Below are positions 30,971 to 38,431 of a stretch of DNA of 42,512 bases, piece after piece (the first letter of the stretch is position 1; every line of letters starts with the position of its first letter). The position numbers and the translations under genes were made by a program. The notes below the pieces were generated by a model. That model was not told the origin of the DNA, made no database searches, and saw nothing but the letters and a program-made list of their open reading frames with translations. Origin of the DNA: Candidatus Kaiserbacteria bacterium RIFOXYD1_FULL_42_15 (lineage in GTDB: Bacteria > Patescibacteriota > Minisyncoccia > Phycocordibacterales > UBA918); NCBI GenBank assembly GCA_001783565.1, contig MFMT01000023.1, forward strand, positions 1 through 42,512, given 5' to 3'.

Positions 30971-30997
30971 AAACTTAGGGGTTAAACCCCTAAGTTT
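30971..30997. repeat. REP-like hairpin, left flank of the RAYT gene
   Basis: AAACTTAGGGG-TTAAA-CCCCTAAGTTT, an 11-bp stem. It overlaps the RAYT stop codon by 1 nt and lies 4 nt after the dnaJ stop. Confidence 0.85.
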
Positions 30998-31626
30998 TAC
31001 TCTAGGGTATCGGATGATTTTGATTTTAGTCTCCTTAAATAAATATCATTAGCCAGAAATACGGCGTCTTTAAACGAGTAATCAACCTGTTCAACACTGT
31101 ATAATAGCTTGCTTCTAGATATATTTTGATAGTGCAGTGAACTGGAGTGACATATTTCTCTCTCCATTTTTATATTATGCACAAAATGATTTTCATTTAC
31201 ATATGCGAGTAGATAGTTGTATTGTTCATCTGAGTTAACATGAACTCGCTTAAATGTTCCCTGGAACAATGCTCCTGATCTATCATTATCTAAATTGTAA
31301 TAACTAGTATACCCACCACTGACTCTTTTCATGAACTCACTAATACCACCATCGATATTTTGTTTTAAAATTAAATGAATGTGATTAGGTAATAGAGAGT
31401 ATGCCTTTATATTCACCAAACGTTCAGCATTTGTGAATATCTTTTTGTGGGCTAATGCAAAATCAAAATTGATTACTGGTTCTATTGAATTAAACAAATC
31501 AAGTGATTGATAAAAACGTAAATAGTCACGTTTTGATGCAAAAACTTCCCGTTTATCAACACCACGATTAAACACGTGGTATATTTCACCAGTCAGCAAT
31601 GGAACAATTTTTCTTGACATAACCAT
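30997..31626 (-). CDS. REP-associated tyrosine transposase (RAYT, IS200/IS605-like HUH Y1 transposase)
   Basis: 209 aa. It has the N-terminal YHVFNRGVDKREVF, the HUH motif LLPNHIHLIL, and a C-terminal catalytic-Tyr region LAYVNENHFVH. Confidence 0.85.
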   Translation of the reverse strand: MVMSRKIVPLLTGEIYHVFNRGVDKREVFASKRDYLRFYQSLDLFNSIEPVINFDFALAHKKIFTNAERLVNIKAYSLLPNHIHLILKQNIDGGISEFMKRVSGGYTSYYNLDNDRSGALFQGTFKRVHVNSDEQYNYLLAYVNENHFVHNIKMEREICHSSSLHYQNISRSKLLYSVEQVDYSFKDAVFLANDIYLRRLKSKSSDTLE

Positions 31627-31721: not shown

Positions 31722-32207
31722 ATGGACACGGCATACATATTTAGTATTCTTCAGGAACTGATTTATATCTTGGTAGTCTTTGGTTTTTTTCTTGGTTATG
31801 CCATTTTTCGGGGCCGGCAAGCAATCATTAATTTGATTACCGGACTTTATTTAGCATTACTTATTTCATTGGAATTTCCGTACTACGACATCCTCCTCTC
31901 ACAAGCAACAACTGCTCATAGTCAATCAATAGTGAAGCTAATTCTATTTGCTATATTTACATTATTAACTACTATTCTAGTCACTCGGATTATGCCTGAT
32001 GAATACCGAGAGAAAAAAATTGAAAGCATTTTCAAAAAAATACTTTTAGCAATGGCAGGCACCATACTCATCACGGTCTTTAGTTTTCATGTCCTACCCG
32101 TCACCGAATTCCTTACCCCTGGCACACCCATCCAATCTCTCTTTGCCCCCGCTCAATACTTCTTCTGGTGGCTGTTAGCTCCGTTGCTAGTTTTGTATTT
32201 GAATTAA
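31722..32207 (+). CDS. integral membrane protein (4-5 TM), unknown function
   Basis: 161-aa hydrophobic ORF. It is possibly CvpA-like, but I cannot support that assignment. Confidence 0.45.
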   Translation: MDTAYIFSILQELIYILVVFGFFLGYAIFRGRQAIINLITGLYLALLISLEFPYYDILLSQATTAHSQSIVKLILFAIFTLLTTILVTRIMPDEYREKKIESIFKKILLAMAGTILITVFSFHVLPVTEFLTPGTPIQSLFAPAQYFFWWLLAPLLVLYLN

Positions 32208-32242
32208 ATACAACAAAAACCCATTTTGGGTCTTTTAAAACA

Positions 32243-32270
32243 TTGACATTTATCTACAGTAGTGTATAAT
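32243..32270 (+). promoter_or_regulatory. sigma-70-type promoter upstream of the AdoMetDC-like gene
   Basis: TTGACA (32243-32248), a 16-nt spacer, then TATAAT (32265-32270). This leaves an ~80-nt leader before the ATG at 32356. Confidence 0.5.
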
Positions 32271-32355
32271 CTAAATACAAATTATATATTATCAATGCAG
32301 GTTGTTCATATTCTGATATTGACAAAATGAGCATTCTAACCAAGTATACTAAAGT

Positions 32356-32763
32356 ATGAAAAATGATTTGAAAGTTGAACAGTTTGGAATTCACTATATG
32401 TTGGATGGTTATGGAGCAGATGCTGTGATACTCAGTGACGCGGTAGCTCTTCGTCATATACTTGATACTCTACCAACCAAAATGGGCATGCACGCCATAA
32501 ACGAACCGGTAGTGGTGGAAGTTGGTGCTAAAAACCGCAAAGATCCAGGGGGTATCAGTGGTTTTGTGATGATTGCTGAAAGTCATATTAGTTTTCACAC
32601 TTTTCCGAAGCGTGGTTTTGTGACAATTGATGTCTACACTTGCCAAAATGAGCTTGATACAGACAAACTCACTCGTGAATTCACTGAGTTTTTCAAATTA
32701 AAAGAAGTTGACGAGTATACAAAAAAGAGGGGGACGAAATACCCTGTTGAGAATATTTACTAA
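32356..32763 (+). CDS. pyruvoyl-dependent S-adenosylmethionine decarboxylase family proenzyme (class 1b, SpeH/SpeD-like)
   Basis: 135 aa. The self-cleavage/active-site signature VMIAESHISFHTFPKRGFVTIDVYTC is present. Substrate specificity cannot be read from the sequence. Confidence 0.85.
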   Translation: MKNDLKVEQFGIHYMLDGYGADAVILSDAVALRHILDTLPTKMGMHAINEPVVVEVGAKNRKDPGGISGFVMIAESHISFHTFPKRGFVTIDVYTCQNELDTDKLTREFTEFFKLKEVDEYTKKRGTKYPVENIY

Positions 32764-32780
32764 GATAATTACTGTAAGAC

Positions 32781-33821
32781 ATGCCTAAAATCAACAAAGG
32801 TGGATATTTGAAGGAGAAAATTGAACACATTGATATCAAAAAGCATGATACTCGTGCGCTGATTAATGATATGAGTAAAATGTCATTTTCTGCTCGTGAC
32901 CTAGCTCGAGCAAGTGATATTTATGACATGATGTTGAAGGATAAGAAATGTACAATCTTCCTTACGTTAGCTGGTAGTACTAGCGTCGCTGGTTGCATGC
33001 AGGTGTATGTGGACATGGTTAAAAATAATATGGTTGATGCTATCGTTTCTACTGGTGCATCAATAGCTGATATGGATTTTTTTGAAGCATTAGGAAATAG
33101 ACACTATAAAGGGACACCCGAGGTTGATGACGCTGATCTCCGCAATCACTTAGTTGACCGTATATACGATACTTTTATCGATGAAGAGGCACTTGAAAAA
33201 AGTGATTTGACGATTAAAGAAATCGCTGACGGTCTAGAGGCTAGAACGTACGCACCATGGGAGCTAATTTATGAAATGGGAAAATGGCTATCCAATAATC
33301 CAAAGAGAGCCAAAAAACAAGATTCTTTAATACAGGTTGCCTACGAACACAACGTTCCTATTTTCTGCCCAAGCTTTTCTGATAGTGGTGCTGGTTTTGG
33401 TATTGCTCTTCACTATATGGGAAGACCTGACTCACACCTTGTTATTGACACCACCCTAGACTTCATTTCGATTACTAAACTTAAAATACAAGCTGAAACC
33501 ACTGGTTTATTAATGGTTGGTGGTGGTGTTCCAAAGAATTTTACTCAAGATACCGTCATAGCAGCAGAAATGTTTGGCAAGGTAGTAGACATGCACAAAT
33601 ACACCGTTCAAATTACCGTGGCTGATGTTAGAGATGGAGCACTTTCTAGTTCAACTCTCAAGGAAGCAGGGTCATGGGGAAAGGTAAGCAAAACTTATGA
33701 GCAAATGGTATTTTCCGAAGCTACTATGTCCGTACCACTTTTAGCTGCTTATGGCTATCACAGTGGCGGTTGGAAAAAAAGAAAACACCATAATTATATT
33801 AAATTCTTAAAACGCGTCTAG
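32781..33821 (+). CDS. deoxyhypusine synthase family protein (DHS-like / homospermidine-synthase-like)
   Basis: 346 aa. It has LAGSTSVAGC, DAIVSTGASIADMD and GGGVPKNF, and a catalytic-Lys context EAGSWGKV comparable to EAVSWGK of DHS. Confidence 0.85.
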   Translation: MPKINKGGYLKEKIEHIDIKKHDTRALINDMSKMSFSARDLARASDIYDMMLKDKKCTIFLTLAGSTSVAGCMQVYVDMVKNNMVDAIVSTGASIADMDFFEALGNRHYKGTPEVDDADLRNHLVDRIYDTFIDEEALEKSDLTIKEIADGLEARTYAPWELIYEMGKWLSNNPKRAKKQDSLIQVAYEHNVPIFCPSFSDSGAGFGIALHYMGRPDSHLVIDTTLDFISITKLKIQAETTGLLMVGGGVPKNFTQDTVIAAEMFGKVVDMHKYTVQITVADVRDGALSSSTLKEAGSWGKVSKTYEQMVFSEATMSVPLLAAYGYHSGGWKKRKHHNYIKFLKRV

Positions 33822-33881
33822 AGTCATTAACACTGATAACACTTACTGTTGAACGTTAAAAAAAATTGAAATGATCTAGGC

Positions 33882-34970
33882 ATGACAATAGCAATAATAT
33901 CTACAGCCATTAGTTCTGTTTGCATGGCCCTAATGATTGTAACTGATAAACTGATGCTGAATCAGTGCTATGAAAGTAAACCTAGACAAGCATGGTTTAT
34001 TAGTTCTCTTGCCGGTTCAGTATTTGGATTGATTCTTACATTTATAATGTGGGGAGCTATTGCTGCAGTTAGTACCAGTGGTACGTTTATCATGTTGCTT
34101 TCTGCAAGTATAGACCTATTCTTTTGGCAGGGTTTAGTTGTTTTAGTGGCTGGTATTTTGGGTATTCAAATATTATTTCACTATTTTAATTGTTTTGGTG
34201 AAGAAGCGAGCTCAGCTTCAGTAGCTGCCTGGATTGCAGCCACACCAATTTTTATATTACTTACTTTTGTATTTTTAGGTCTTATCAGCCAACTTACAGG
34301 TTTCTACACAGCTTCCACACTTACCCAGTCAATACATCCTATTTTTGTAATTAGTACCATAATAACAACCTTTGCTTTAATTGGTTTTGAATATGTTTCT
34401 AATTCGGATAAAATTTTTCAAAACAAATACCGCAAAAGTTTGATACTATTGATAAGTTATAATGTTTTTTACAGTATATTACTTCAATATGTACTTAGTA
34501 GTGAACCATGGAAGTATAGTCATAGCATGTATGTTTTAGCCCTACTACCATATCTATGGGTTGGTTTTGCAACTGGTACTAGGGATATTTTAAACAAAAA
34601 TAGGAGAAAGGAAATTTTTGACAATTGGCACTTGAATGTTAAAAAATATTGGAAACTTATTTTAATGGCTGAAATAATTGGAATGTTTGTCTTTTACTTT
34701 GAGTACTTCGGTTTGGCTGACCTGAACGCTGCCTATGTTAGCGTAATTATTGGTGCTCATGTACTACTGGTATACCTATTGGACTTTCTCTTACTTTTGT
34801 ATATACACAGCAAACACAATCATTTTATTAAAATTAATAAAACTCAAACACTGATAATTGATGAAACCATTCCTTTGTATCAGGTAAAAACTATAAAAGC
34901 AAGAATTGTTGAAATTCTTTTTTTAACAACTACGGTTGTTGGTATTATTGTTACCACAATGTATATATAA
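33882..34970 (+). CDS. polytopic membrane protein (~10 TM), possible transporter
   Basis: 362-aa very hydrophobic ORF with two halves of about 5 TM each. No family motif recognised. Confidence 0.55.
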   Translation: MTIAIISTAISSVCMALMIVTDKLMLNQCYESKPRQAWFISSLAGSVFGLILTFIMWGAIAAVSTSGTFIMLLSASIDLFFWQGLVVLVAGILGIQILFHYFNCFGEEASSASVAAWIAATPIFILLTFVFLGLISQLTGFYTASTLTQSIHPIFVISTIITTFALIGFEYVSNSDKIFQNKYRKSLILLISYNVFYSILLQYVLSSEPWKYSHSMYVLALLPYLWVGFATGTRDILNKNRRKEIFDNWHLNVKKYWKLILMAEIIGMFVFYFEYFGLADLNAAYVSVIIGAHVLLVYLLDFLLLLYIHSKHNHFIKINKTQTLIIDETIPLYQVKTIKARIVEILFLTTTVVGIIVTTMYI

Positions 34971-35079
34971 ACTACTTGGTGGGCTTTATAGCTGTAGATA
35001 AACAACTTGAGAAACTCATACATTACTGTATCTTATAGAGGTACAGTGATGTTTGTCGGTTGTTGTCATACCGCTTTAC

Positions 35080-35238
35080 ATGGATACAAAATCTAAAATA
35101 TTAATTGTTCTGTTGGTAATTCTGATAGTACTTTCCGTCTCAGCTACGTACTATAGGTTTTTTGTTTTCAAAGATTACGAAACATTCTTTGATAATTATG
35201 ATGAAGAGGCACTAGATAGCACAACACTAGGAGAATAA
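35080..35238 (+). CDS. small single-pass membrane protein
   Basis: The ATG at 35080 gives 52 aa: MDTKSKILIVLLVILIVLSVSATYYRFF... with an acidic tail. It fits tightly between flanking genes. Confidence 0.35.
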   Translation: MDTKSKILIVLLVILIVLSVSATYYRFFVFKDYETFFDNYDEEALDSTTLGE

Positions 35239-35244
35239 TTTTAC

Positions 35245-35778
35245 ATGCAAATTTCTTGGTTCAATAAAAAGCTCGAGACGCGAAAATCACCGATTTCTGG
35301 AACTGGGGTTTTCGCGAAAAAACAAATCGCAAGAGGAGAGACGGTAGCAGTCTTTGGTGGCTTTGTCGTTGACGTAGATACTCTAAAAAAAAATAAGACT
35401 ACATGCCCGAAAGAGTATAAGACGATTTTAGAAATTGGATATCAAATTACAGATAATTTAATTTATGCACCAACTACAAAGGCACAGTTTTCAGTTATTG
35501 AGTACCTTAATCATAACTGTGACCCAAATTGCGGTTTCGAGGATGCAATAACGCTCGTTGCAATGAGAGATATACCTAAAAATACAGAAATAAGCATGGA
35601 CTATGCAATGTGCGTGTCACTCAAGATGTTTGAGATGAAGTGTGAATGTGGGAGTAGTATTTGCAGGGGTTTTGTACATTTTAATGACTGGAAGATCAAA
35701 GAGCTGCAGAAAAAATACAAAAAATTTTTTCAGCCATATATAAGGAAAAAGATTAAGTTGCTTAATGTAAAAAAATGA
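35245..35778 (+). CDS. SET-domain protein-lysine methyltransferase
   Basis: 177 aa. It has SPISGTGVFA, the NH(S/N)C motif YLNHNCDPNC, ISMDY, and a post-SET-like Cys cluster CECGSSICRG. Confidence 0.8.
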   Translation: MQISWFNKKLETRKSPISGTGVFAKKQIARGETVAVFGGFVVDVDTLKKNKTTCPKEYKTILEIGYQITDNLIYAPTTKAQFSVIEYLNHNCDPNCGFEDAITLVAMRDIPKNTEISMDYAMCVSLKMFEMKCECGSSICRGFVHFNDWKIKELQKKYKKFFQPYIRKKIKLLNVKK

Positions 35779-35779
35779 T

Positions 35780-37441
35780 ATGGAACAATTACTCTGTCCA
35801 TGGGACGCACCAAACTGGCTATTTTTTTCAGAAAATGTGCCAAATATGCTTTTTTATTCACACTTTACCGCACTTCTAGCTATTTTCATCATAGGGTCAT
35901 TTCTGTTTTTTAAAGATAGGAAAAACCTTACCGTTCGTATTTTAACAGGTCTTTTTATTTTGTTTTTTGTATGGACAATAATTGACGTTATTATTTGGGC
36001 GACAAACAGGTCGGACTTGGTTTTGTTTTTGTGGGCAATGATTGTACTGATTGAACCAATTATTTATATACTCGCTTTTTACACTTTGTTTAGTTTTTCC
36101 TACAACAAAACACCCGCTTTCATCATCAACCTTTTTGTAACTCTTTTACTTCTTCCTCTTATATTGTTTATACCAACTAATTTGAATCTTAGTGGTATCA
36201 ATTTGTATGACTGTAATGCTATAGAAGGTCCATTAGCCAGTGTTTACACATATTTCCTTGAAATATTGTTTATTTTTGGGATAATATTTGTTGCTACAAA
36301 AAAGATTGTTTCATTAGAAACTCGAAAAGAAAGAGTAAAGATTTTGTTTTTTGCCCTTGGTCTACTAGCGTTCTTGGCTGCTTTTGCTTCTGGAAATATT
36401 ATTGGTAGTGTAACTGGTGATTGGATACTAGCACAGTATGGACTGCTTGGTATGCCAATCTTTGTGGGATTTCTAACCTACCTTATTGTTGAATACAAAA
36501 TCTATAATTTAAATATCCTTGGCGCCCAAGCACTCATTGTAACCCTCTGGTTTTTGATTGGATCACTATTATTTGTTGCGCAATCAATTCAAACCAAAAT
36601 TGTGTCGGGTTTTACACTTTTAGTTGCTGTTGTCTTGGGAATAATTTTGGTTCGTAGTATTAAAAATACTGTCCACCAACGTGAAGAGATTGAAAAACTG
36701 GCGATTAAACTGGAGAAAACTAATGTTCGCCTTAAGATACTTGATAAGCAAAAATCTGAATTCGTTTCCATTGCTAGCCACCAATTACGCAGTCCACTGA
36801 CTTCTATTCGTGGTTATATTTCTATGATGCAAGAGGGAAGTTTTGGGGCTGTGACTGCCAAAATGATTGAACCGCTCCAACGAATCAACGAATCGGCCTC
36901 CATGATGGCTACTTCCATTGAGGATTTTCTCAGTGTATCTCGTATTGAGTCAGGTAATATGAAATATGAATATTCTGACTTTAATCTGCGTGACCAAGCC
37001 GAACATATCGTTGATGACCTGCGACCAGAAGCACTTAAAAAAGGACTATTGCTATTATTCCGCACCGATCTAAACTGCCAAGGAATAGTTAAAGCCGATG
37101 TCGGTAAAATACAACAAATTCTTCATAACCTTATTAACAACTCTCTCAAGTATACACCCAAAGGAACTATTACAGTCTACGTTCACGACGATAAGAAACG
37201 AAAATTATTGTACGTTGAGATAATTGACACTGGCATCGGTATGAGTCAGGTGACAATAGACTCTTTGTTTGAGAAATTCACTCGGGCACAAAATGCCAAC
37301 TCAGTTAATATAAAAGGCACTGGATTAGGACTCTTTATTGCCCGAGAAATGGCTCGGGCTATGAAGGGTGATGTCACTGCTCACTCTGAGGGGGAAGGTA
37401 AGGGTTCTCACTTTATTTTTACTATTCCATTTCAGCAATAA
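35780..37441 (+). CDS. sensor histidine kinase with a polytopic membrane N-terminus
   Basis: 553 aa. About 8 TM helices are followed by the HisKA H-box FVSIASHQLRSPLTSIRGY and HATPase_c N/G boxes (LHNLINNSLKYT, DTGIGM, GTGLGLFIA). No response regulator is present in the window. Confidence 0.9.
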   Translation: MEQLLCPWDAPNWLFFSENVPNMLFYSHFTALLAIFIIGSFLFFKDRKNLTVRILTGLFILFFVWTIIDVIIWATNRSDLVLFLWAMIVLIEPIIYILAFYTLFSFSYNKTPAFIINLFVTLLLLPLILFIPTNLNLSGINLYDCNAIEGPLASVYTYFLEILFIFGIIFVATKKIVSLETRKERVKILFFALGLLAFLAAFASGNIIGSVTGDWILAQYGLLGMPIFVGFLTYLIVEYKIYNLNILGAQALIVTLWFLIGSLLFVAQSIQTKIVSGFTLLVAVVLGIILVRSIKNTVHQREEIEKLAIKLEKTNVRLKILDKQKSEFVSIASHQLRSPLTSIRGYISMMQEGSFGAVTAKMIEPLQRINESASMMATSIEDFLSVSRIESGNMKYEYSDFNLRDQAEHIVDDLRPEALKKGLLLLFRTDLNCQGIVKADVGKIQQILHNLINNSLKYTPKGTITVYVHDDKKRKLLYVEIIDTGIGMSQVTIDSLFEKFTRAQNANSVNIKGTGLGLFIAREMARAMKGDVTAHSEGEGKGSHFIFTIPFQQ

Positions 37442-37477
37442 GTGGCTGATTCTGGTTAAATTTGTTACTATTGGTGC

Positions 37478-38431
37478 ATGAAGACAACAACCATACTCAC
37501 TGGATTACAACCATCTGGTGACCTGCATATTGGGAATTATTTTGGGTCAATCAAACCATTTCTTGATTTATATGACGAACAAAAGGACTCTGCCAAATTT
37601 TATTTAATGGTGGCTGATTATCATGCTTTGACATCGGTACGAGACGGCAGTGCCTTACGTCGCAATATCTACAACATCGTGCGTGATTATTTGGCTACTG
37701 GCGTTGACCCAGAGCACGTGACTTTATTCCGTCAATCAGATAACCCTGACCACATGGAATTGGGATGGATTCTTGACTGCATGGTATCTGTACCATTTTT
37801 AATGCAAGCCCATTCATATAAAGATAAGGTAACAAGGGGTCTCGATGCTAATGCCGGGCTCTTTACCTACCCGATGCTAATGGCGGCCGACATCTTACTT
37901 TACAATACTGACTTAGTACCAGTCGGGGAGGATCAACGCCAACACCTAGAATACACTCGTGAAGCCGTGACGAAATTCAACAACAACTACGGAGAAATAC
38001 TTAAAGAACCCAAGGAAGTTATTCTTAAAAATGTTGGTGTTGTACCGGGAACAGATGGTCAAAAAATGAGCAAGAGCTACGGGAACACTATTCCACTTTT
38101 TGGTACCCGTGAGGAAATTCAAAAAGCCGTGATGAGTATTGTCACCGACTCAACCGGAGACCGTCCTGAAAATGTCTACGCTATTCATTCATTATTCAGA
38201 AGCAAGGGGCAATTGGAGAGCTTGTACTCTGAACATACTGGAAAGTACAAATATCTAAAGGAAGCGTTGATCGAGGACATAGATTCGTTAATCGCACCAA
38301 TGCGCGAAAAACGCAATGACATCAACGATGGCGATATCCGCAAAATACTGGCTGCCGGAGCTGAGAAGGCAAGAGGAATATCGTCAATAACCATGGAGAA
38401 AATCAGGGATGTGATTGGAATTAATATTTAG
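37478..38431 (+). CDS. trpS: tryptophan--tRNA ligase
   Basis: 317 aa. LTGLQPSGDLHIGNYFG (HIGH region), GEDQRQH, KMSKS. Confidence 0.95.
   Translation: MKTTTILTGLQPSGDLHIGNYFGSIKPFLDLYDEQKDSAKFYLMVADYHALTSVRDGSALRRNIYNIVRDYLATGVDPEHVTLFRQSDNPDHMELGWILDCMVSVPFLMQAHSYKDKVTRGLDANAGLFTYPMLMAADILLYNTDLVPVGEDQRQHLEYTREAVTKFNNNYGEILKEPKEVILKNVGVVPGTDGQKMSKSYGNTIPLFGTREEIQKAVMSIVTDSTGDRPENVYAIHSLFRSKGQLESLYSEHTGKYKYLKEALIEDIDSLIAPMREKRNDINDGDIRKILAAGAEKARGISSITMEKIRDVIGINI

What the first reader, a model, noticed from the sequence alone, without database searches (positions are those of the whole stretch)
32356..33821. AdoMetDC-family pyruvoyl enzyme adjacent to a deoxyhypusine-synthase-like gene, with no spermidine synthase nearby: atypical polyamine or hypusine-like module
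The 135-aa gene has the class 1b AdoMetDC self-processing signature (AESHISFHTFP). Only 17 nt downstream is a 346-aa deoxyhypusine synthase family gene with a conserved catalytic-Lys context (EAGSWGKV) and an NAD-binding GGGVPKNF. No speE-type aminopropyltransferase is present in the window. DHS-family enzymes transfer aminobutyl groups. They make deoxyhypusine on a/eIF5A in archaea and eukaryotes, and homospermidine in some bacteria. I also recall, but cannot verify here, that some class 1b AdoMetDC homologues have been shown to be neofunctionalised ornithine or arginine decarboxylases. By inference the pair could be a two-gene route from ornithine or arginine to putrescine to homospermidine. 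Alternatively it could be an archaeal-like protein-modification system in a bacterium that has EF-P rather than eIF5A. The next genes are a ~10-TM membrane protein and a tiny membrane protein, which may handle transport.
Basis: partly seen in the sequence, partly recalled or inferred. Interest (0 to 1): 0.6.

Follow-up and report, generated by a model that had tools for sequence, protein, structure and literature searches.

The report
Agmatine-coupling operon lacking its hydrolase
A tiny-genome (Patescibacteria) bacterium carries a recently published two-enzyme route that joins two agmatine molecules, but it lacks the hydrolase that normally finishes the polyamine homospermidine and has a dedicated transporter gene instead, so it may stop at, and export, the bis-guanidino intermediate.

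Summary
At 32356-32763 lies an AdoMetDC-fold pyruvoyl enzyme (SpeDh). 17 nt later, at 32781-33821, lies a DHS-family gene.

The DHS-family gene is not a hypusine enzyme. It scores as SpeY/CdmS, the synthase that couples two agmatines into N1,N9-bis(guanidino)homospermidine (G44G). It has the catalytic Lys and the Phe/Leu pair of characterised Thermus CdmS.

SpeDh is most likely an AdoMetDC-derived arginine decarboxylase (SpeDA). The genome has no SpeE and no other ADC. Relatives 52-61% identical sit in 14 canonical speDA-speY-agmatinase clusters.

This makes it the published speDA-speY pathway (Li 2023, Kobayashi 2024, Li 2026). This scan has already met that pathway on other DNA.

What differs here:
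- No ureohydrolase or iminohydrolase was found in this genome (84% complete) or in the two other genomes with the same architecture. All ten other SpeY genomes tested have one.
- A related Patescibacterium has agmatinase exactly between speY and the next gene.
- The next gene (33882-34970) is a rare DMT-fold transporter family that stays linked to speDh plus DHS-like genes across phyla.
- It was recently co-transferred with speY as a 2.2-kb block.

The likely end product is G44G rather than homospermidine. This is inferred, not shown.

The parts
32243..32270 (+). Promoter-like site (TTGACA-16-TATAAT, 12/12) in the 148-nt gap before speDh. It probably marks the operon start.
   Evidence: This is a consensus match only. 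A terminator-like hairpin at 32215-32235 follows the upstream gene.
32356..32763 (+). speDh: a class 1b AdoMetDC-fold pyruvoyl proenzyme (135 aa), inferred to be an arginine decarboxylase (SpeDA type). Self-processing and catalytic residues: Ser in ESH, His five residues later, Cys in YTC.
   Evidence: PF02675 E 2e-25. TIGR03330 scores 74.3 bits, under its 75.65 cut-off. It is the only PF02675 gene in the genome. The central motif is shared with members of speDh-speY-agmatinase clusters. dN/dS is 0.03.
32781..33821 (+). [quoted passage not shown] Catalytic Lys301. Other conserved site residues: Trp299, Glu295, Asp285, Asn253, Phe206, Leu288, Asp201, Glu135, Asp142.
   Evidence: NF002699 scores 521.8 bits against a cut-off of 500. 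DHS models score 140-286 bits against cut-offs of 304-434. Residues were mapped on human DHS and on 98 other SpeYs. Phe/Leu match Phe204/Leu286 of characterised CdmS. dN/dS is 0.11-0.18.
33882..34970 (+). Mem362: a 362-aa membrane protein with the DMT (drug/metabolite transporter) fold and no Pfam hit. Proposed transporter of the pathway's cationic product or substrate. Acidic residues are invariant or nearly so (D22, E170, E264, E274) and lie in predicted helices of this helical membrane protein.
   Evidence: No Pfam or NCBIfam hit. Only 17 homologues were found in 5.8 billion proteins. The AF2 model has pLDDT 84 and pTM 0.86. All top Foldseek hits are DMT transporters with probability 1.0. 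Homologues sit beside speDh plus DS genes in Patescibacteria and Acidimicrobiales.
35053..35238 (+). Small 61-aa single-helix membrane ORF. Whether it belongs to the module is uncertain.
   Evidence: Small ORFs occupy the same position in relatives. Only its first about 50 nt lie inside the recombined block.
32900..35100 (.). A block 99-100% identical to metagenome contig L204, covering the body of speY, Mem362 and the start of the small ORF. Flanks are 71-84% (speDh) and 78% (histidine kinase) identical. This indicates a recently exchanged speY-transporter cassette.
   Evidence: pS is 0.73 in speDh, 0.065 in speY and 0.013 in Mem362.

Best explanation
A three-gene operon (promoter, then speDh, speY, Mem362) turns arginine into agmatine and couples two agmatines into the bis-guanidino triamine G44G.

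Proposed steps:
1. SpeDh self-cleaves at the Ser of ESH to form its pyruvoyl cofactor and decarboxylates L-arginine. This step is inferred.
2. SpeY, with NAD, oxidises agmatine, carries the 4-guanidinobutyl group on Lys301 as an imine and passes it to a second agmatine. The mechanism is taken from characterised homologues. The residues are shown to be present here.
3. The usual last step, hydrolysis of both guanidino groups by a G44G ureohydrolase or iminohydrolase to give homospermidine, has no gene here. G44G is therefore probably the end product in this lineage.
4. The co-inherited DMT-fold protein probably moves G44G out of the cell, or exchanges arginine, agmatine or G44G.

The module is accessory. 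It sits in a variable slot between the dnaK-dnaJ genes and a histidine kinase, and it spreads by recombination.
For: SpeY identity:
- NF002699 is over its cut-off and DHS models are far under theirs.
- Lys301, Trp299, Glu295, Asp285, Phe206, Leu288, Glu135 and Asp142 are present. Phe/Leu match Phe204/Leu286 of Thermus CdmS, which uses agmatine only.
- All SpeYs tested in PMC13625781 make G44G.

SpeDh as arginine decarboxylase:
- It lies 17 nt upstream of speY behind one strong promoter-like site.
- The genome has no SpeE and no AR-fold, AAT-fold or Pvl arginine decarboxylase.
- 14 relatives (52-61% identical) lie in speDh-speY-arginase clusters. Their central motif is near-identical and they score the same sub-threshold TIGR03330 value.
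- G601, the one such genome checked, shows only a single PF02784 hit of about 418 aa and no AAT-fold or Pvl ADC.
- The family is separated by a long branch from the Thermotoga and Aquifex AdoMetDCs.

Missing hydrolase:
- The own genome has no PF00491, PF04371, PF02274 or PF00795. A custom HMM of SpeY-linked ureohydrolases run at maximum sensitivity also found nothing.
- The two other genomes with this architecture gave no PF00491, PF04371 or PF02274 hit. All ten other SpeY genomes have a hydrolase, mostly adjacent to speY.
- L210 has agmatinase exactly between speY and the Mem362 homologue in the same syntenic slot. Its SpeY nests inside the clade.
- No agmatinase remnant remains between the genes.
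- speY stays under purifying selection.

Transporter:
- DMT fold, linkage across phyla and co-transfer with speY.
Against: - No enzyme activity was measured.
- ADC cannot be told from AdoMetDC by sequence. The Pro that Li et al. use to mark bona fide AdoMetDC is retained here.
- I could not obtain characterised SpeDA sequences for a tree.
- The genome is 84% complete. The completeness of the two sister genomes is unknown, and the three are related, so they are not independent cases.
- An unrelated, unrecognised hydrolase, or one supplied by a host cell, could finish the pathway.
- In Thermus, G44G was undetectable in vivo, so a physiological role for G44G as such has no precedent.
- The transporter's substrate and direction are unknown.
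- The window's SpeY is the most diverged of its clade at positions that are otherwise invariant (11 of 113).
Confidence: 0.58

Rival explanations
1. This is the ordinary agmatine-dependent homospermidine pathway. G44G is hydrolysed to homospermidine by an enzyme I did not see: one on unassembled DNA, one from an unrelated family, or one supplied by the host or partner cell.
For: The genome is 84% complete. The published pathway always ends in a hydrolase. Any SpeB homologue, even the E. coli one, can hydrolyse G44G. A close relative has the four-gene version with agmatinase.
Against: Three of three genomes with this architecture lack every known candidate family, against ten of ten others that have one. 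The position where the relative has agmatinase is a 60-nt spacer here, with no remnant. No hydrolase was seen on the four gene-called contigs with this architecture.
Confidence: 0.25
2. One reading: SpeDh is an ornithine decarboxylase, and this SpeY clade couples two putrescines (or uses putrescine) to make homospermidine directly, so no hydrolase is needed.
For: Li et al. 2023 predicted ODC for SpeD homologues in genomes that lack an agmatine-to-putrescine route. The clade has its own substitutions at otherwise invariant SpeY positions, including the Asp316 equivalent.
Against: The protein has Val, Glu, Thr and Thr where I read the SpeDC ODC clade to have Gln, Thr, Phe and Tyr. Leu at the Asp316 equivalent is exactly the state of agmatine-specific CdmS. 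The modelled agmatine-binding residues are kept. SpeDh is the same type as in clusters that do contain agmatinase. No SpeY tested so far uses putrescine.
Confidence: 0.06
3. SpeDh is a bona fide AdoMetDC with a role outside polyamine synthesis, or one whose dcAdoMet feeds an unknown transferase. SpeY would get agmatine from the environment.
For: The ESH..H..P motif and the Pro are as in AdoMetDC. TIGR03330 scores only 1.4 bits under its cut-off.
Against: No aminopropyltransferase was found in this genome. In the ten patescibacterial genomes of the family with other partners there were only three marginal hits at E about 1e-5. The family is tightly coupled to the agmatine-using SpeY and to cation exporters. 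Trp70, Glu72 and Gly84 (Thermotoga numbering) are replaced throughout the family, and a 7-residue insertion is present.
Confidence: 0.05
4. The core function is the decarboxylase plus transporter pair: arginine in, amine out, for pH homeostasis or membrane potential, as in decarboxylase/antiporter systems. SpeY would be an optional add-on that modifies the exported amine.
For: In the 80 nearest relatives SpeDh is next to a PACE exporter in 27, to EamA/DMT genes in about 10, and to Mem362 alone in 2. SpeY is present in only 16.
Against: Here the transporter was co-transferred with speY, not with speDh. No antiport activity is known for this family. This reading overlaps with the best explanation rather than excluding it.
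Confidence: 0.05
5. A hypusine-like modification of a protein such as EF-P by the DHS-family enzyme.
For: The enzyme is of the DHS family with its catalytic Lys. An EF-P-like ORF exists on another contig.
Against: DHS models score far below their cut-offs, and His288, Asp243 and Asp316 are replaced. There is no linkage to efp. The enzyme clusters with small-molecule SpeYs.
Confidence: 0.01

Closest known systems
speDA-speY-speB(DUH) or -aguA(DIH) clusters of the agmatine-dependent ('diagmatine') homospermidine pathway (Li et al., JBC 2023 PMC10407285; Li et al., JBC 2026 PMC13625781; e.g. Capsulimonas corticalis, Ca. Marinimicrobia, Gimesia maris)
   Same: An AdoMetDC-derived pyruvoyl decarboxylase lies directly upstream of a SpeY that passes the family cut-off. 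The genome has no SpeE and no canonical ADC. The distribution is patchy and shaped by HGT.
   Different: No ureohydrolase or iminohydrolase was found anywhere in the genome, although the 2026 paper argues that speY travels with one. A DMT-fold transporter gene travels with speY instead. The predicted product is G44G, not homospermidine.
Thermus thermophilus CdmS (TTHA1570) with SpeB, the caldomycin pathway (Kobayashi et al., Sci Rep 2024, PMC10981699)
   Same: The same enzyme family. It has the catalytic Lys, Phe and Leu in place of DHS Asp243 and Asp316, and the Glu proposed to bind the guanidino group.
   Different: In Thermus the intermediate is hydrolysed at once and is undetectable in vivo. 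Its arginine decarboxylase is the PLP-dependent SpeA.
Deoxyhypusine synthase (human 1RLZ/6XXJ; archaeal 7CMC, 8PUT)
   Same: The fold, the NAD-site aspartates, and Lys329, Trp327 and Glu323.
   Different: His288 is Asn, Asp243 is Phe and Asp316 is Leu. DHS HMMs score far under their cut-offs. There is no a/eIF5A substrate in a bacterium.
Class 1b AdoMetDC (Thermotoga maritima 1TLU/1VR7, Aquifex 2III)
   Same: The fold and size, and the self-processing Ser, His and Cys.
   Different: About 35% identity. There is a 7-residue insertion before the 'KDPGG' strand. 'HTWPE' becomes 'HTFP(K/L/G/A)' and 'TCG' becomes 'TCQ'. No SpeE partner is present.
DMT-superfamily transporters (EamA/YddG 5I20, LicB 7B0K, nucleotide-sugar and triose-phosphate translocators)
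   Same: The predicted fold (Foldseek probability 1.0, TM 0.5-0.7). EamA genes occupy the same position in sister loci.
   Different: There is no sequence-level match to PF00892. The family is very small and is found beside speDh plus DHS-like genes.

Membership tests
[quoted passage not shown] | Scores over the curated equivalog cut-off of NF002699 and higher than on any DHS model | tested here: met
   521.8 bits against a cut-off of 500. The best DHS model gives 285.9 against 434. Clade mates score 542-567.
[quoted passage not shown] | Catalytic Lys (human Lys329, CdmS Lys299) with the Trp and Glu of the 'E..SWGK' motif | tested here: met
   Lys301, Trp299 and Glu295 are present.
[quoted passage not shown] | Hydrophobic residues in place of DHS Asp243 and Asp316 (CdmS Phe204 and Leu286) | tested here: met
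   Phe206 and Leu288 are present. Most SpeYs have Cys at the second site, whereas characterised CdmS has Leu.
[quoted passage not shown] | Entrance acidic pair proposed to bind the second agmatine (CdmS Glu136 and Asp143) | tested here: inconclusive
   Glu135 and Asp142 are invariant in 98 SpeYs and kept here. Their equivalence to the CdmS residues rests on my numbering offset, not on an alignment with CdmS.
[quoted passage not shown] | Makes G44G from agmatine | not testable with these tools
   This needs an enzyme assay or expression in E. coli lacking speB.
Agmatine-dependent homospermidine pathway (ADC + SpeY + DUH or DIH) | A G44G ureohydrolase (arginase family), or an iminohydrolase plus amidohydrolase, encoded in the genome | tested here: not met
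   The own genome has no PF00491, PF04371, PF00795 or PF02274, and a custom HMM found nothing. The two sister genomes gave no PF00491, PF04371 or PF02274 hit. Caveat: the own genome is 84% complete.
SpeDA (AdoMetDC-derived pyruvoyl arginine decarboxylase) | AdoMetDC fold with the self-processing Ser, His and Cys | tested here: met
   PF02675. ESH, His at +5 and Cys at +20 align with Thermotoga S63, H68 and C83.
SpeDA (AdoMetDC-derived pyruvoyl arginine decarboxylase) | An 'anomalous' SpeD: no SpeE and no canonical ADC or ODC in the genome, clustered with speY | tested here: met
SpeDA (AdoMetDC-derived pyruvoyl arginine decarboxylase) | Loss of the Pro that is invariant in bona fide AdoMetDC (gamma position of Li et al. 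2023) | tested here: inconclusive
   Pro is retained in 'HTFPK'. The paper says only that this Pro is not conserved in SpeDA, and I inferred which Pro is meant.
SpeDA (AdoMetDC-derived pyruvoyl arginine decarboxylase) | Groups with biochemically validated SpeDA proteins in a tree | not tested
   The validated sequences (accessions listed) could not be fetched with the tools available.
SpeDA (AdoMetDC-derived pyruvoyl arginine decarboxylase) | Decarboxylates L-arginine and not AdoMet, ornithine or lysine | not testable with these tools
   This needs an enzyme assay.
SpeDC (AdoMetDC-derived ornithine decarboxylase) | Four diagnostic residues Gln, Thr, Phe and Tyr around the pyruvoyl site | tested here: not met
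   The window has Val, Glu, Thr and Thr at the positions I derived from the fusion-protein alignment of the paper's supplement. The derivation of those positions is mine.
Bona fide class 1b AdoMetDC (TIGR03330) | Scores over the equivalog cut-off and has an aminopropyltransferase partner | tested here: not met
   74.3 bits against 75.65. No PF01564 was found in the genome.
Deoxyhypusine synthase | Scores over the DHS model cut-offs, has His288, Asp243 and Asp316, and has an a/eIF5A substrate | tested here: not met
   Only an EF-P-like ORF is present.
DMT (drug/metabolite transporter) superfamily, for Mem362 | The DMT fold | tested here: met
   The AF2 model has pTM 0.86. All 29 top Foldseek hits are DMT members. 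There is no Pfam EamA hit by sequence.

The most novel reading that the evidence does not exclude
In one patescibacterial lineage the homospermidine pathway has been cut short by loss of the hydrolase. The bis-guanidino triamine G44G (diagmatine, caldomycin), known so far only as a fleeting intermediate, would be the final product. A dedicated, previously undescribed DMT-fold transporter family that travels with speY would handle it, possibly exporting it towards the host cell or the cell surface.
Probability: 0.35. Interest if true: 0.6.

Novelty: new variant of a known kind. Interest (0 to 1): 0.42.

Why it matters
The agmatine/SpeY route to homospermidine was worked out only in 2024-2026. 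Its authors argue that speY spreads together with a G44G-specific hydrolase. A lineage that keeps speDA and speY under purifying selection, has dropped the hydrolase and has gained a pathway-specific transporter would show two things: that G44G can be an end product, and what a guanidino-polyamine does in ultra-small, probably symbiotic bacteria. It would also give a first functional lead for an orphan membrane-protein family. If the hydrolase is simply unseen, this is one more example of a known pathway.

Tried and rejected
1. Hypusine-like system: rejected on the HMM scores and on the replaced His288, Asp243 and Asp316.
2. ODC plus a putrescine-using SpeY: disfavoured.
3. Altered substrate pocket: I first read the clade-specific Cys288Leu change, at the Asp316 equivalent, this way. 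The Thermus paper shows that agmatine-specific CdmS has Leu there. The paired losses Cys141/Cys288 and Arg160/Glu230 look more like lost structural contacts. This is inference.
4. Relics of an agmatinase gene between speY and Mem362: searched in four loci. One weak tblastn hit in L094 (E 0.011) was not confirmed by the HMM.
5. Characterised SpeDA and SpeDC sequences for a tree: the paper's supplement lists accessions only. The PDB holds only bona fide AdoMetDCs. The phage collection gave only distant hits.
6. Two structural or biochemical papers on AdoMetDC and the crenarchaeal ADC are not held.
8. The genomes behind L208 and L209 are not held, so I could not ask whether the Acidimicrobiales trio also lacks a hydrolase.
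9. My first ORF filter hid SpeDh and its neighbours in high-GC loci. This was corrected with tblastn.
Full report
**Observation.** One is at 32356-32763 (135 aa, with 'IAESHISFHTFP'). The other is at 32781-33821 (346 aa, with 'GGGVPKNF' and 'EAGSWGKV'). They are 17 nt apart on the + strand. Pfam gives AdoMet_dc (E 2e-25) and DS (E 7e-90). They are followed by a 362-aa membrane protein without any Pfam hit, a 61-aa membrane ORF, a SET-domain gene and a histidine kinase. A perfect TTGACA-16-TATAAT site lies in the 148-nt gap before the first gene. The window is contig 23 of a 757-kb, 43-contig genome that is 84% complete. Its relatives are Patescibacteria.

[quoted passage not shown] Every deoxyhypusine synthase model stays far under its cut-off. 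This enzyme is SpeY/CdmS.
- In Thermus thermophilus it uses agmatine as its only substrate and joins two molecules to form G44G ('caldomycin'). A ureohydrolase then turns G44G into homospermidine (PMC10981699).
- Li et al. 2026 showed that SpeYs from many phyla all make G44G. They also showed that the SpeY-linked ureohydrolases (DUH) and iminohydrolases (DIH) are specific for G44G (PMC13625781).
- Mapping on human DHS and on 98 other SpeYs shows Lys301 (Lys329), Trp299, Glu295, Asp285 and Asp201. It also shows the SpeY-specific Asn253 (for His288), Phe206 (for Asp243) and Leu288 (for Asp316).
- Characterised CdmS has Phe204 and Leu286 at the last two sites.
- Glu135 and Asp142, probably the entrance pair proposed to bind the second agmatine, are kept.

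The hypusine reading and the putrescine route therefore do not hold.

**The AdoMetDC homologue (SpeDh).** It is the only PF02675 gene in the genome.
- The genome has no spermidine synthase and no alanine-racemase-fold, aminotransferase-fold or archaeal pyruvoyl arginine decarboxylase.
- It scores 74.3 bits on the AdoMetDC equivalog, just under the 75.65 cut-off.
- Li et al. 2023 showed that such 'anomalous' SpeDs are arginine (SpeDA) or ornithine (SpeDC) decarboxylases, and that most SpeDA genes lie in speY clusters (PMC10407285).
- Among its 80 nearest genomic relatives (47-78% identical), 14 from Pseudomonadota lie in speDh-speY-arginase clusters. One of these genomes, checked for other ADC folds, shows only a single PF02784 hit of about 418 aa.
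- These relatives share the window's central motif almost letter for letter and have the same sub-threshold TIGR03330 score.
- The whole family differs from the Thermotoga and Aquifex AdoMetDCs. It has a 7-residue insertion, 'HTFP(K/L/G/A)' for 'HTWPE', and 'TCQ' for 'TCG'. It is separated from them by a long branch.
- At the four positions I derived for the ODC clade (Gln, Thr, Phe, Tyr) from the paper's supplementary alignment, the window has Val, Glu, Thr and Thr.

Arginine decarboxylase is therefore the best-supported reading, but it rests on context. I could not fetch validated SpeDA sequences, and the Pro said to mark AdoMetDC is retained.

**The missing last step.**
- The own genome has no arginase-family, agmatine-deiminase, ADI/amidinotransferase-superfamily or CN-hydrolase gene.
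- An HMM built from nine SpeY-linked ureohydrolases, run without filters on all six frames, finds nothing better than E 0.04.
- SpeY is rare in Patescibacteria: 2 of 201 genomes sampled in the order and 4 of 401 in the phylum.
- Of twelve other SpeY-bearing genomes tested, the two with the speDh-speY-Mem362 arrangement (L100, L105) also lack both hydrolase families. All ten others have one, mostly next to speY.
- Four gene-called metagenome contigs with the arrangement show no hydrolase either.
- A related Patescibacterium (L210) has, in the same syntenic slot, speDh-speY-agmatinase-Mem362 homologue. The agmatinase there scores 218.7 bits on TIGR01230.
- The L210 SpeY nests within the Mem362-linked clade, with SH-aLRT 86-89.
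- In the window that position is a 60-nt spacer, and no relic of the gene is detectable.
- speY is still under purifying selection, with dN/dS 0.11-0.18.

The hydrolase-less state thus looks real and derived, not an assembly gap. The three genomes are related, however, and the completeness of two of them is unknown.

**The transporter.**
- Mem362 has only 17 homologues among 5.8 billion proteins, and none has a Pfam domain.
- An AlphaFold model built on their alignment is confident (pLDDT 84, pTM 0.86).
- Its top 29 PDB matches are all DMT-superfamily transporters: CMP-sialic acid and triose-phosphate translocators, PfCRT, LicB and YddG.
- Invariant or nearly invariant acidic residues (D22, E170, E264, E274) and aromatic residues lie in its predicted helices. 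This would fit a cationic substrate. That is inference.
- Homologues lie beside speDh plus DS genes in other Patescibacteria and, at 30-32% identity, beside a very divergent DHS-like gene and a SpeDh in Acidimicrobiales.
- Window and contig L204 are 71-84% identical through speDh and 78% through the kinase. They are 99-100% identical from about 32,900 to about 35,100, which covers the body of speY and Mem362. speY and the transporter were therefore exchanged recently as one block.

**Setting.**
- The slot between dnaK-dnaJ and a 161-aa membrane gene on one side and the histidine kinase and trpS on the other is variable.
- In sister lineages the same orthologous SpeDh is followed by an LPG_synthase_C-domain gene plus EamA, by a PurD-like ATP-grasp gene plus EamA, or by EamA alone.
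- Two genomes of the same genus lack speDh and speY altogether and hold other membrane genes there.
- In Pseudomonadota 27 of the relatives have a PACE-family exporter adjacent to the decarboxylase gene.
- The decarboxylase is therefore regularly coupled to export of, or further chemistry on, its amine product.

**Verdict.**
- The pair is a member of the published speDA-speY system. This scan has met that system several times on other DNA.
Its route and its product are not.
- What is new is the hydrolase-less, transporter-linked variant. It predicts G44G as the end product.
- My estimates: about 0.7 that the pair makes G44G, about 0.8 that no dedicated hydrolase is encoded, and about 0.35 that G44G is a functional, transported end product.

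Noticed in passing
L092:6001-8385, L097:6001-8780, L104, L106, L123, L153, L157 (same syntenic slot as window 32356-34970): The orthologous SpeDh of sister Patescibacteria is followed not by speY but by other genes. These are a stand-alone LPG_synthase_C (MprF C-terminal, aminoacyl-tRNA transferase-like) gene plus EamA, a PurD-like ATP-grasp gene plus EamA, or EamA alone. In a SpeDh tree these partners are interleaved within one clade (SH-aLRT 95), so partners are swapped in place. The products are unknown.
   Followed up: partly
L135:6457-6972, L113:6468-6959, L116:6426-6995, L138:6492-6995 and 23 further loci: In 27 of the 80 nearest SpeDh relatives, all from Pseudomonadota, a PACE-family (PF05232) efflux gene lies within a few kb of the decarboxylase gene. 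In the four loci examined it ends at or inside the decarboxylase ORF as I delimited it. No speY or speE was seen in the genomes checked.
   Followed up: partly
L208:5001-7614 and L209:5001-7608 (Acidimicrobiales): A Mem362 homologue (30-32% identical) lies head-to-head with an operon of a SpeDh (39% identical) and a very divergent DHS-family gene. That gene is 23% identical to SpeY and passes no NCBIfam model. This is a deep-branching version of the same gene trio in Actinomycetota. Whether a hydrolase is present could not be checked.
   Followed up: partly
window 32150-38431 against L204: The nucleotide identity between two strains is a mosaic: 71-84% in speDh, 99-100% in speY-Mem362, 78% in the kinase and trpS, and 89-94% further on. 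The SET-domain gene (35245-35778) is missing in L204.
   Followed up: partly
window 35245-35778: A 177-aa SET-domain (PF00856) protein gene lies in a Patescibacterium, overlapping the start of the histidine kinase gene. It is present at the same place in same-genus genomes but absent from contig L204.
   Followed up: no
window 30997-31626 (-): An IS200-like Y1 transposase-family gene (weak PF01797 hit) is kept at the same syntenic position in G158, L106 and L210 (49% identity in G158). It looks like a domesticated or REP-associated gene rather than a recent insertion.
   Followed up: no
L202:2545-4990 (G158, same genus) and L203:7358-8041 (G055): In same-genus genomes the slot that holds speDh-speY-Mem362 here carries other content. 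One has two paralogous 263- and 277-aa membrane proteins plus what looks like a small toxin-antitoxin pair (my reading, no family search). The other has one 227-aa membrane protein.
   Followed up: partly
SpeY positions 141, 160, 230, 288 (window 33201-33203, 33258-33260, 33468-33470, 33642-33644): Cys141, Arg160, Glu230 and Cys288 are conserved in 96-98 of 98 other SpeYs. All four are replaced in the whole Mem362-linked clade. Losing them in pairs suggests a Cys-Cys contact and an Arg-Glu contact that this clade has given up.
   Followed up: partly
G000:C40:26423-26521 (L197): The only EF-P-like gene found (a 199-aa frame) matches PF01132 only weakly (21.7 bits, under the cut-off). Its loop sequence is unusual, 'FRKQQRKPV', where E. 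coli (from memory) has 'KPGKGQ'.
   Followed up: no
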